DNA of 62,695 nt, counting the filler, from Squatina squatina (taxonomy: Eukaryota): the NCBI GenBank assembly GCA_031763465.1. It is 4 parts of 4 records of this genome, joined end to end, with 100 filler letters (N's around TTAATTAATTAA, not from the genome) between each part and the next. Parts side by side here need not be neighbours in the genome. Positions count along the whole stretch, not along the records: positions 30,135 to 48,532 come from JARFOE010000001.1; 3 more parts are not named here. One strand, written 5' to 3'. The stretch's first letter is position 1; each line of letters opens with the position of its first letter. Below are positions 38,930-48,532 of the stretch, piece after piece. The notes beneath the pieces are model-generated. The model ran no database searches and was not told the DNA's origin. It worked only from the letters and a program-made list of their open reading frames with translations. The position numbers and the translations under genes are program-made.

Positions 38930-39094
<165 letters not shown>

Positions 39095-41191: not shown

Positions 41192-41348
41192 AGATGAGAA
41201 GAATCAATCCATTATCGTAAGTGGGGAGTCTGGAGCTGGCAAGACCGTGTCTGCTAAGTATGCCATGCGTTATTTCGCCACTGTGGGTGGGTCAGCCAGT
41301 GAAACAAATGTTGAAGACAAGGTCCTAGCCTCAAGTCCAATTATGGAT
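41192..41348 (+). CDS. MYO5B: Myosin-Vb exon containing the P-loop (equivalent to exon 5)
   Basis: 157 nt after CCCCAG. Encodes [52 protein letters not shown], with GT at 41349. VGGSAS and LASSP are Vb-type residues as I recall them. Confidence 0.93.
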
Positions 41349-44302: not shown

Positions 44303-44568
44303 AAAAAAGATGAGCACTTGAACTACTTCTGTGATTTACTGGGAGTTGAGCACGATCAGATGGAACACTGGCTGTGTCATCGCAAGCTGGTCACGACGTC
44401 CGAGACCTATGTCAAGACCATGGCCAGGCAGCATGCCATCAATGCCAGAAATGCACTGGCCAAGCACATCTATGCCCAGCTCTTCAAATGGATTGTGGAT
44501 CACATCAACAAAGCACTGTACACAACCAGCAAACAGCACTCATTTATTGGAGTACTGGATATTTACGG
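44303..44568 (+). CDS. MYO5B: Myosin-Vb exon 10-equivalent, copy A (CM loop, helix O, switch II)
   Basis: 266 nt, TTTCAG/GTACAG. Encodes [89 protein letters not shown], very close to mammalian MYO5B. Confidence 0.93.
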
Positions 44569-46191
44569 GTACAGAATGGAGTAGGGTTTACACAACTTTG
44601 TGCAAAGTATAACTACAGCTGCCTTTTCAAACTGGGACCCTTAGTGGTGGTTGCCCAATTTATTTTTAAAAAAAATAGCAAATGTGTCAAAATAAGTTTT
44701 TTTTTCAAAAAAGAAACAGTTATTTGTGTGTGGATTTTGTGCCCATCAAGGTGAGGGACAGTGGGCTGGGAATGGAACACTTTTTCATGTTGGGTACCCA
44801 CATTCAAGCACTTTGAGGTAAGCGTACGGCATGGTTAGCTGCAGAAGTAGGTCCCTCTGCTCTGCTCCAACAATAGGCTAAAGTCCAATTTCAGAGAGCA
44901 CCACCTGCTGCACCAGTGCCACACTTATCACTTCCCTCTCTGAGTAACATTTCCAATTTGGTGCCAGTTTTGTGCTCCAGGCCTGTGCCCACTAGAAACA
45001 GAATTGAGACTGTTGAAAACCCATTTCATATATGCCTTTTAAATACAGACGGAGAAGACGTTTATCCCATCCGTCAGATTCAGACCCGAATCCCAGAGGT
45101 TGAAATGACCGCCTAAACCAGTACATTCCTCTTGGTCCAATCCCTCCTCTCCCTGGATATTCTCAAGTGGCCGTTCTTCTGGACAGTGGGTGGGCTATTT
45201 GGAAATCACAGTCCAGTCTGAACTTGACATAGCCCAGATTTTGCGATCGGAGGCTTCCTGTGTGCGGAGGCCTCGAGACGCAAAAATGTCTAAGACCTTA
45301 CCTGACAGTCCTGGATTCACGTGAGTTTCCATTTTCTGCCCCCGCAGTTGTGCATGGGCAGCGCGGCTCTGTTCTTTCCTGTGTTAGTCCTGCGGAGTGA
45401 CTGGAGAGGTCACGTGGGAGGCCCCAACCAATCAGGTAGGAGTATCTCTCATTCAAACTTTGACAGATATGACAGGTCTGTCAAAGCTTGNNNNNNNNNN
45501 NNNNNNNNNNNNNNNNNNAAAAAATGATTGTAACATTAAAATTTAATAAAAATGAGATAAATAATACAAACATTAAAAAATTTAAAAATGTTTAAAAACA
45601 TACTTGCCTTAATGGGAATGGTTTTAAAAATAATATACCATTAATTTTTTTTATTTTAACATTTTTAAAAACTCTTACGCTGGTAAAACCAAGCATATAC
45701 ACTTGGTTTTACCGTGCATTAAAAAAGTTAGAGATTTCCAGGCGTGGAGAANNNNNNNNNNNNNNNNNNNNNNNNNNNNNNNNNNNNNNNNNNNNNNNNN
45801 NNNNNNNNNNNNNNNNNNNNNNNNNNNNNNNNNNNNNNNNNNNNNNNNNNNACAGGCAAAATACCCATGAGTTGCAAAAATGCAATGCTATTCACAAGAC
45901 ATTCATCACTGTTTGTCAAACTCTTTTTAAATGCATTCTGCTTTAACGGCAACGTGATTTGTAATATGCACCTCACAGATTGAGAGCTCCTTTATCCATT
46001 TCTTTAATGAAATGCTTTGTGGAAATAGCAAATTTGGAAAAGGATGGAAAACCAAATTGGGTTGGGAGTATGTTCTGAAGATGGATTTCTCCCACACTTG
46101 ACTGAAATGAATTTACACTCGCTAATATTTGTTGTCGTTTATGAAAGAGATGTGACCTGAATTTACGTGTTTTTTTTGTGATGGTCTGCAG

Positions 46192-46457
46192 TCAAATGAT
46201 AAACATCTCGAGCTATTCTGCAAGTTACTGGGACTGGAGAGAAAACAGTTGGCGCATTGGCTTTGTCACCGCAAGCTTGTAACACTGAATGAAACCTACA
46301 TCAAATCAATGACCATAAAACAGGCCACTCATTCCAGGGATGCTCTTGCAAAGCACATTTATGCACAGCTATTTAACTGGATTGTGAATCAAATCAATAA
46401 AGCTCTACGATCCTCTTCAAAGCAGCATGCCTTTATTGGTGTGTTAGATATTTATGG
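46192..46457 (+). CDS. Class V myosin exon 10-equivalent, copy B (alternative exon or paralog)
   Basis: 266 nt, CTGCAG/GTAAGA, no stops. Encodes [89 protein letters not shown]. Confidence 0.9.
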
Positions 46458-46541
46458 GTAAGAATGACGAGCTTTCTGCTGACCAAGTATTTTTTAAAAA
46501 CTGATCATAGTTGTAATTTAAACTTTTTAAATCATCTTTAG

Positions 46542-46623
46542 GTTTGAAACTTTTGAAAACAACAGTTTTGAACAGTTTTGCATCAACTATGCCAATGAAA
46601 AATTGCAGCAGCAATTTAACCTG
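46542..46623 (+). CDS. Class V myosin exon 11-equivalent (end of switch II, relay helix)
   Basis: 82 nt, TTTAG/GTGAGC. Encodes [27 protein letters not shown]. Paralog identity is uncertain. Confidence 0.92.
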
Positions 46624-46842
46624 GTGAGCTCACTGAACTGTGCATGCGCACATGTACGCGAACATTTTTACTGATGGTGACATTCAATTCTAAGTGCATC
46701 AAATTTACCTGGTGTTTGTATTTACCTTGACTCTAAAGACCCCTTTAAATAGTGACCGAACAAATGGAGATTCCCAGTAATGGGCATTTTTTGAATGTAA
46801 CCTTAGTGTCACTGTTTGTCGTATGCTTTCAATGTTTTTCAG

Positions 46843-46983
46843 CATGTCTTCAAACTGGAGCAGGAGGAATACATGAAGGAACAAATACCATGGACTCTCA
46901 TTGACTTCTCTGACAATCAACCTTGCATTGACCTTATTGAGGCTAAATTGGGCATCTTAGACCTGTTAGATGAAGAATGCAAG
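46843..46983 (+). CDS. Class V myosin exon 12-equivalent
   Basis: 141 nt, TTTTCAG/GTAAAG. Encodes [47 protein letters not shown]. Confidence 0.92.
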
Positions 46984-48532
46984 GTAAAGACAGATAATGA
47001 GTTTCCCCTCTGATTTTATAATAAGAGTGCATGAGTTTCTCATCTTGGGAGGCTGTGATAGGAAGTGAGAGTAAAAAAATCAGCATGTATTTAGGCAGGC
47101 AGGTTGGATTGTGGGACCGAAAGGAGAGTAACTGTTGTATATTCAACTGGAAACCAATTAAATATAACCATGATGGGATTTTGCTGAAACATTTTGGGAA
47201 ATTTAGATTTTTTTTTGGAAGTCTTAAACCTGTTGAGTGACCGACACAGCATATTGGAGCACCAAATGGGTGGGACATTGATGTGTGTCCTCAATCACTT
47301 TCACTGCTGAGTTCACAGTCTCAACTGTAAGGGACTGCCAAACCGAGAGGCCAGGAGCTCATCAACACCTAGGAAGGGAAAGTCACTCATGAGGCAATCT
47401 TAAGCATTTCCTTCATGGCTGGTTACAGATTTCATTGTTGGAGGCCTGGGAGCCGAGCGCCCAGCCTCTCTGCCATGGCTGGAAANNNNNNNNNNNNNNN
47501 NNNNNNNNNNNNNNNNNNNNNNNNNNNNNNNNNNNNNNNNNNNNNNNNNNNNNNNNNNNNNNNNNNNNNNNNNNNNNNNNNNNNNTAGTCAAAAAAGGGG
47601 ATGCTGAGCCAAAAGAAGGAGATATTATGAAAAGTGGTCACTGCGCTCATCTTAACGGTGGAAAGGCAGAGGGGTGGGAGACACTGGAGCATTGCACCCT
47701 ATGTGTTGTACTATAGAGGTTGTTCCACACTAAGACCAAATGTAACTTGGAAAATATGGGAGCTAAAATTTAAATTCTTACATCTGAACCTTATAACCTT
47801 ATATTAAGGCAAAACGTCGTCTGTTGAAATTTCTGCATACAATTTCTTTCCTGGAATTTTGAGGAGAGAAATTCATAACTCTTGCTGTCTCCTTCAAGAA
47901 GCAAGGAAGGATTAAATGTAATTCTGGACTTATTGCAAGAGCATGCAGTGGACTATGATCCCACAGTAAAATTTCATAACCTGGAAAAATAATGAAGCGA
48001 TGCATCAAATGAAGTTTTACAGCAGTTTTTTCATATAAGTAGTGCCAGAAATTAATGATAACACAAAGCTTTGGGATCCATGCAAAGTTACCCCTTCCCC
48101 TTGTTTGGCTCATGCTGATTTCATTTTGAAAAGAAAAACAATCAATGTTTCTTCTGCACGTTGGAGACTTGTACAGGTTTTACTCTAGATGAAGCAGGTA
48201 GCTAATGTAGAGCTGTCAGTGCTATTAGAAGCAATAAAAGTGTAATTGGTTCTATTTGGATTGATCATGGTTGGAACTCGCGCTGCAGAGGTATGCAGCA
48301 TTTTCAGCTTTGCGTCTGCATTAAGTACTGGGCAAATGGATGCAGTCGACTTTAGACCCAGAGCTAGGCTCCTCTCTTTAAATCTCCCAAGCAGCACTCT
48401 TCCTGCACAAGTTTGACTTTTCTATTTCATGCACTCAAAGGAAAATCTTCAACTTGCTTTATTGGTTATCCATGGGATTTTGGTTATCCATGCCTTTGTT
48501 ACCTCTGGACTTGACTATTCCAAAGCACTCCT

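What the first reader, a model, noticed from the sequence alone, without database searches (positions are those of the whole stretch)
44303..46457. Two intact, diverged copies of the same myosin V motor exon: mutually exclusive exons or a hidden paralog
Seen: two exons (44303-44568 and 46192-46457), each exactly 266 nt, with the same phases, canonical AG/GT sites and no stops. By hand count they share 59 of 89 residues (about 66%), with many additional synonymous differences, so both appear constrained. Because 266 is not a multiple of 3, including both would frameshift, as expected for a mutually exclusive pair. Established: this segment spans the upper-50K region, the actin-contacting cardiomyopathy loop ([10 protein letters not shown] vs [10 protein letters not shown]), helix O and the start of switch II (DIYG). 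Mutually exclusive motor-domain exons are known in arthropod muscle myosin heavy chain; I know of none in the vertebrate myosin V motor. Inference: if both copies are in cis, this shark MYO5B could tune actin binding or kinetics by exon swapping. Caveat: a 100-N gap (45752-45851) separates the copies, so homology-guided mis-scaffolding of a paralogous contig is at least as likely.
Basis: partly seen in the sequence, partly recalled or inferred. Interest (0 to 1): 0.7.

Follow-up and report, generated by a model that had tools for sequence, protein, structure and literature searches.

The report
Assembly chimera of two myosin genes
The two look-alike exons belong to two separate, already described shark myosin V genes, and their side-by-side position is likely a genome-assembly error, not an exon-swapping mechanism.

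Summary
Both 266-nt exons are real and intact (58 of 88 residues shared), but they come from different genes. Exon A (44303-44568) is MYO5B exon 10 (85/88 to sawshark MYO5B). Exon B (46192-46457) is exon 10 of a fourth vertebrate class V gene (83/88 to sawshark 'Va-like', 59/86 to MYO5B), most likely the published myo5bb; it lies on another chromosome-scale record than MYO5B in 11 of 12 chondrichthyans. It runs paralog intron-exon B-intron-exon 11, then switches inside exon 11 (between about 46560 and 46625) to MYO5B intron 11 and exon 12. In related animals' DNA contigs, 2 of 2 carrying exon B leave the window at 46625 into one shared other intron, and 3 of 3 that run from exon 11 into the window's intron 11 have another upstream intron. 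None of 63 scored chondrichthyan proteins mixes the exon types. Verdict: paralog misjoin in a fragmented assembly (about 0.93); no support for mutually exclusive exons. Reads of this same animal were not available.

The parts
38949..39093 (+). MYO5B coding exon (residues 104-151; exon 4 by recalled human numbering)
   Evidence: 46-48/48 to 8 of 8 chondrichthyan MYO5B (one partial, 20/20) against 38-45/48 to their paralog
41192..41348 (+). MYO5B coding exon (residues 152-203, P-loop; exon 5). Exons for residues 205-315 are missing from the scaffold after it
   Evidence: 49-51/52 to MYO5B against 40-47/52 to the paralog; no hit for 205-315 in 40 kb of C1
43610..43719 (+). MYO5B exon 9
   Evidence: 29-33 of 35-36 to MYO5B, 11-16 matches to the paralog
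44303..44568 (+). Exon A = MYO5B exon 10
   Evidence: 77-85 of 87-88 to chondrichthyan MYO5B, 52-58 of 86-87 to the paralog; sits among shark MYO5B rows in the tree
45752..45851 (.). 100-N scaffold gap; left border of the paralog-derived sequence
45852..46191 (+). 3' end of the paralog's intron 9
   Evidence: one relative's contig (X6 record 14) carries 45852-46084 and 46170-46625 together
46192..46457 (+). Exon B = exon 10 of the separate class V paralog (likely myo5bb)
   Evidence: 69-83 of 86-88 to the paralog in 8 of 8 chondrichthyans, 58-61 to their MYO5B; in a 97/92-supported clade of 13 rows with it
46458..46541 (+). 84-nt intron 10 of the paralog
   Evidence: carried with exon B on X1 record 3 and X6 record 14; MYO5B-type contigs start matching only at 46540
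46542..46623 (+). Exon 11, chimeric: paralog at its 5' end (Asn codon 46558-46560), MYO5B by its 3' end; the join lies between about 46560 and 46625
   Evidence: FETFENNS is the paralog's form, MYO5B has Ile/Val there; contig ends
46624..46842 (+). 219-nt intron 11 of MYO5B
   Evidence: carried with exon 11 and exon 12 on X6 record 17 and X10 record 9; the paralog's contigs continue into another intron
46843..46983 (+). MYO5B exon 12
   Evidence: 43-46/46 to chondrichthyan MYO5B, 33-39/46 to the paralog

Best explanation
Exon A is exon 10 of MYO5B and exon B is exon 10 of a separate class V myosin gene (likely myo5bb), and they stand side by side most likely because the assembler joined the two genes inside their near-identical exon 11 and the scaffolder then placed the chimeric piece in the MYO5B locus. 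Shown: the gene of origin of each exon; the switch from paralog to MYO5B sequence between about 46560 and 46625 on a gap-free piece; separate, collinear exon 10-11-12 runs for each gene in related animals. Inferred: that the join was made by the assembler (shared word in exon 11, wrong entry paired with wrong exit) and that the MYO5B half (intron 11, exon 12, intron 12) is what drew the piece to this place. In the animal, MYO5B would splice 9-A-11-12 and the paralog 9'-B-11'-12', each constitutively.
For: (1) Best hits of B are full-length 'Vb-like/Va-like' proteins of sharks, rays and chimaera (76-94%), best hits of A are MYO5B (86-97%); the two sawshark proteins are only 52% identical overall. 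(2) Exon by exon, 4, 5, 9, A and 12 are MYO5B, B and the start of 11 are the paralog. (3) DNA contigs of relatives: X1 record 3 and X6 record 14 follow B, the 84-nt intron and exon 11 to 46625, then both run on for 255 or more unlike letters with the same 30-letter start; X1 record 6, X10 record 9 and X6 record 17 follow exon 11 into the window's intron 11 (two of them to exon 12) but match only from 46540. (4) X1 and X6 each hold 4 different exon-11 contigs; G000 yields 1 class V exon 11 and 2 exon 12 for four genes. (5) B is the only paralog-type exon 10 found in G000 (four class V hits = B, A, two on C7), while 12 other paralog-type exons lie on 9 small contigs, C163 and C222. (6) 63 of 63 scored chondrichthyan proteins have matching exon-10 type and flanks (38 MYO5B, 25 paralog; 9 fragments of 72 skipped). 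(7) The two genes lie on records of different length in 11 of 12 chondrichthyans. (8) The assembly has 1,152,659 contigs and the scaffold holds only about 11 MYO5B exons in 40 kb.
Against: No raw reads of this animal were laid, so the join is not shown to be absent from its DNA; the informative contigs are from other organisms (mostly under 95% alike). The run closest to the window (X5, 95-99% alike) covers only 47022-47443 and says nothing on the join. The two left-over arms expected from a misjoin (MYO5B intron 10 end; paralog intron 11 and exon 12) were not found in G000. In Narcine both genes are on records of the same length, probably one chromosome. Annotated proteins would miss an unannotated alternative exon.
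Confidence: 0.93

Rival explanations
1. A real rearrangement in this lineage or individual: ectopic recombination between the two genes inside exon 11 put a paralog segment (intron 9 end to exon 11) into or next to MYO5B.
For: The switch lies on a gap-free piece with intact splice sites; the paralog's own intron 11 start and exon 12 were not found in G000.
Against: Both genes' other exons are present and intact-looking elsewhere; only one paralog-type exon 10 was found, so no donor copy is left; many exons of all four genes are missing from this assembly, so absence means little; three related organisms show the unjoined state.
Confidence: 0.04
2. Mutually exclusive exons of MYO5B: a duplicated exon 10 in cis, one copy spliced at a time.
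For: Equal length, equal phases, canonical sites, 266 not divisible by 3.
Against: Equal length and phase are expected of any two class V paralogs (the two C7 genes match over the same span). B groups with a separate gene whose clade includes chimaera, coelacanth, lungfish and newt. Paralog character runs on through the next intron into exon 11. 0 of 63 scored proteins mix types.
Confidence: 0.015
3. Simple mis-scaffolding: the whole piece 45852-47485 is an intact contig of the paralog.
For: The piece begins at a 100-N gap and its first 770 bases are paralog.
Against: Exon 12 on the piece is MYO5B (46/46 to three sharks' MYO5B, 36-39/46 to the paralog in sharks) and its intron 11 travels with MYO5B-type contigs.
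Confidence: 0.015

Closest known systems
myo5bb, the fourth vertebrate class V gene (PMC6372264; passages, section 12 and supplement table rows seen)
   Same: A second MYO5B-like gene kept in shark and coelacanth and described there as hidden paralogy; exon B falls in a clade of shark, ray, chimaera, coelacanth, lungfish and newt 'Vb-like' proteins apart from MYO5B. The paper's shark myo5bb is XM_007910183.1; the chimaera member of my clade is XP_007908374.1, probably its protein (number offset recalled, not checked).
   Different: The paper's synteny markers (mbd3, onecut3) could not be placed beside the paralog's exons in G000. The paper counts chicken 'myo5b' as myo5bb; the two bird proteins in my tree group with mammal MYO5B (chicken not tested).
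MYO5B (myo5ba) of cartilaginous fish
   Same: Exons 4, 5, 9, A and 12 match it at 77-100%; an MBDa hit lies 0.3 Mb and a CUT hit 1 Mb away on C1, in line with mbd1 beside myo5ba in PMC6372264.
   Different: No annotated or transcript-derived chondrichthyan MYO5B scored here carries a B-type exon 10 (0 of 38).
Mutually exclusive motor exons of arthropod muscle myosin heavy chain (PMC2257972; search listing and start of abstract only)
   Same: Tandem, equal-length, equal-phase homologous exons, as the window appears to show.
   Different: There the copies share one gene's flanking exons; here copy B brings its own intron and the start of its own exon 11 and belongs to another gene.

Membership tests
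Mutually exclusive exon cluster | Homologous exons of equal length and phase with canonical splice sites | tested here: met
Mutually exclusive exon cluster | Both copies lie in cis in one intron of one gene | tested here: not met
   B's flanking introns and exon 11 start belong to another gene in relatives' contigs; other record in 11 of 12 species
Mutually exclusive exon cluster | Isoforms with either copy in the same protein backbone | tested here: not met
   0 of 63 scored chondrichthyan proteins mixed
Mutually exclusive exon cluster | Junction reads 9-B and B-11-12 in RNA of this species | not testable with these tools
   no RNA holder listed
myo5bb (exon B) | Groups in a class V clade apart from MYO5A, MYO5B and MYO5C | tested here: met
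   exon tree 97/92 for B with 12 elasmobranch rows; motor tree: paralog clade 96, MYO5B clade 100 (no full-length MYO5C row)
myo5bb (exon B) | Same gene as the published shark myo5bb accession | tested here: inconclusive
   XM_007910183.1 against XP_007908374.1; pairing recalled
myo5bb (exon B) | Synteny with mbd3 and onecut3 | tested here: inconclusive
   no CUT or MBDa hit on C163 or C222; incomplete assembly
MYO5B (exon A) | Closest to MYO5B across species and collinear with MYO5B exons | tested here: met
Paralog misjoin in an assembly | Switch of gene of origin inside a conserved shared segment, unjoined in relatives | tested here: met
Paralog misjoin in an assembly | Raw reads of the same sample do not support the join | not testable with these tools
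   no run holding half of the stretch's words was listed

The most novel reading that the evidence does not exclude
The join is real: in this shark lineage a segment of the myo5bb gene (exon 10 and the start of exon 11) recombined into MYO5B through exon 11, giving MYO5B a second, paralog-derived actin-contact exon that could be spliced instead of its own.
Probability: 0.04. Interest if true: 0.7.

Novelty: not a real feature. Interest (0 to 1): 0.07.

Why it matters
As biology it is ordinary: two known paralogs. As a warning it is useful: in this assembly a gap-free piece can be a paralog chimera with perfect splice sites, so equal-length tandem exons here should be checked against paralogs exon by exon before being called mutually exclusive. 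If the join were real, it would be a case of a vertebrate myosin V motor gaining an alternative actin-contact exon from an old paralog; three paper searches listed no report of that.

Tried and rejected
Sequencing runs: no RNA holder listed and no run with half of the words; this says nothing on expression. Reads were laid only on 45852-47485; exon A, its flanks and the 100-N gap have no read evidence. C822866, whose end matches exon 11, first looked like MYO5B's lost exon 11; it reads YCNEKLQQ with another exon border and is another myosin class. Searches of G000 for the paralog's exon 12 and for the 30-letter start of its intron 11 with 3 mismatches found nothing; the assembly is incomplete. 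Synteny markers for myo5bb were not placed. GC and GC3 of the pieces do not locate the join. The whole-motor IQ-TREE run did not finish and was replaced by FastTree on 33 partly different rows. PMC5583752 (passages and its one held supplementary table) gave nothing on class V mutually exclusive exons; its Additional file 1 text, which discusses splice variants, was not among the files held and may bear on this. A search for 'myo5d' and like names listed no relevant paper. Earlier findings of this scan: none by words or sequence. Pfam scan of 21 of 55 long open frames of the window gave no family over its cut-off.

Full report
Observation. The two exons are as described: 44303-44568 (A) and 46192-46457 (B), 266 nt each, AG/GT borders, one open frame. 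They share 58 of 88 residues and 179 of 266 bases; 30 of the 58 shared residues differ synonymously. The window's third stretch equals G000 contig C1 at 18398 of 18398 letters, so the N gaps are the assembly's. The genome has 1,152,659 contigs. Exon 9, exon A and exon B lie on three different gap-free pieces. In 40 kb of C1 only about 11 MYO5B exons are present, and those for residues 205-315 are missing. Exon numbers follow the recalled human MYO5B structure.

Whose exons are they? The best hits of A are MYO5B of sharks and rays, 86-97%. The best hits of B are other full-length proteins of about 1700-1760 residues, named 'myosin-Vb-like' or 'Va-like', 76-94% in sharks, rays and chimaera. The sawshark pair is 52% identical overall. 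In 8 of 8 chondrichthyan pairs A is closer to MYO5B (77-85 matches against 52-58) and B to the paralog (69-83 against 58-61). In an 88-column tree B lies in a 97/92-supported group with 12 elasmobranch paralog rows; A lies among shark MYO5B rows, in forks of weaker support (89/83 and 88/96). A FastTree of 707 motor columns and 33 reference rows separates a MYO5B clade (100) from a paralog clade (96) that holds sharks, rays, chimaera, coelacanth, lungfish, newt and a long sturgeon row. By the length of the record that carries each gene, the two differ in 11 of 12 chondrichthyans (Heterodontus, Carcharodon, both Chiloscyllium, both Scyliorhinus, Hemiscyllium, Stegostoma, Rhincodon, Pristis, Rhinoraja); in Narcine the lengths are equal.

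All four genes are in G000. A search with B gave four class V exon-10 hits: B, A and two on C7, 53 kb apart; one C7 exon groups with coelacanth MYO5A (99/96), the other is likely MYO5C, its known tandem neighbour (PMC6372264). Twelve further exons score best to the paralog and lie on 9 small contigs, on C163 (2) and on C222 (1) (31 of the loci held were compared). So B is the paralog's own exon 10, and no second copy was found.

Where the error lies. Exon by exon, 4, 5, 9, A and 12 are MYO5B; exon 12 is 43-46/46 to MYO5B and 33-39/46 to the paralog. Exon 11 begins FETFENNS, the paralog's form; MYO5B has FEINS in 35 of 38, FDINS and FEVNS in one each, one not read. B, exon 11 and exon 12 stand on one gap-free piece (45852-47485), so the gene of origin switches without an N. 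Contigs of four public runs were laid on this piece. The 2 contigs that carry B (X1 record 3, X6 record 14) follow it through the 84-nt intron and exon 11 to 46625 and then both run on for 255 or more letters unlike the window, with the same first 30. The 3 contigs that run from exon 11 into the window's intron 11 (X1 record 6 to 46631 with 2 other letters; X10 record 9 to 46642 and again 46762-46985; X6 record 17 to 46991) match only from 46540. X1 and X6 each hold four different exon-11 contigs, as four genes would give; G000 yields one class V exon 11 and two exon 12. No listed piece spans B and intron 11. The join therefore lies between the Asn codon (46558-46560) and 46625, where the two proteins are identical.

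Mechanism. Shown: the origin of each exon, the switch inside exon 11, the unjoined state in three other organisms. Inferred: MYO5B and the paralog share a word in exon 11 long enough for a short-read assembler to treat it as one node with two entries and two exits; it paired the paralog's entry with MYO5B's exit, and scaffolding placed the piece after exon A because its right half is MYO5B. In the animal each gene would use its own exon 10 constitutively. In agreement, 63 of 63 scored chondrichthyan proteins, including transcript-derived ones, have an exon 10 of the same type as both flanks (38 MYO5B, 25 paralog; 9 fragments of 72 skipped).

Against this reading. The informative contigs come from other organisms; the run most like the window (X5) covers only 47022-47443. 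No RNA holder was listed. The left-over arms of the misjoin were not found in G000. Exon A and the 100-N gap have no read evidence. A true recombination between the genes in this lineage is thus not excluded (about 0.04). Among all 220 fetched proteins over 500 residues, 6 gave mixed signatures: coelacanth and lungfish paralogs, whose exon 12 region stays close to MYO5B, a lamprey and a MYO5A protein, and two near-zero scores; none is chondrichthyan.

What is known. PMC6372264 (passages, section 12, supplementary table rows) describes a fourth clade, myo5bb, in shark, coelacanth, gar, teleosts, turtle and birds, as hidden paralogy from the vertebrate genome duplications, and lists four shark genes (5a, 5c, 5ba, 5bb). 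Exon B is most likely its exon 10; the accession pairing is recalled and synteny could not be tested. Searches for mutually exclusive exons in the myosin V motor listed no such report; the arthropod case (PMC2257972) was seen only as a listing.

Verdict. The exons are real; their tandem arrangement is very likely not. Novelty: not a real feature. Interest 0.07.

Noticed in passing
window 46621-46623 and proteins: Exon 11 ends FNL in 10 of 10 chondrichthyan MYO5B shown, as in most of the paralog, but FNS in 5 of 5 bony-vertebrate MYO5B shown; relatives' MYO5B contigs differ from the window's exon 11 by only 2 letters. An old conversion of exon 11 between the two genes is possible and would explain why the join fell here.
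   Followed up: no
P0001-P0014, P0026: The chondrichthyan paralog has diverged in the relay region (EEYL-EGL-WTLIDY against [15 protein letters not shown] in MYO5B, coelacanth and lungfish paralogs staying close to MYO5B) and is about 100 residues shorter than MYO5B; its function seems unstudied in the papers searched.
   Followed up: partly
L068 (G000:C163) and L070 (G000:C222): Paralog-type exons lie on three different large scaffolds (C1, C163, C222), so placement on scaffolds in this assembly is unreliable for this gene family.
   Followed up: partly
P0111, P0236: Ostrich and swift MYO5B group with mammal MYO5B, not with the paralog clade, whereas PMC6372264 calls chicken myo5b a myo5bb gene.
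   Followed up: no
P0128 and P0014 (Narcine bancroftii): Both genes are on records of equal length (375,657,673), probably one fused chromosome; the only such case of 12.
   Followed up: no
L012 and L014 (G000:C7): Two more class V genes 53 kb apart (MYO5A and likely MYO5C); no exon 11 was found for either.
   Followed up: partly
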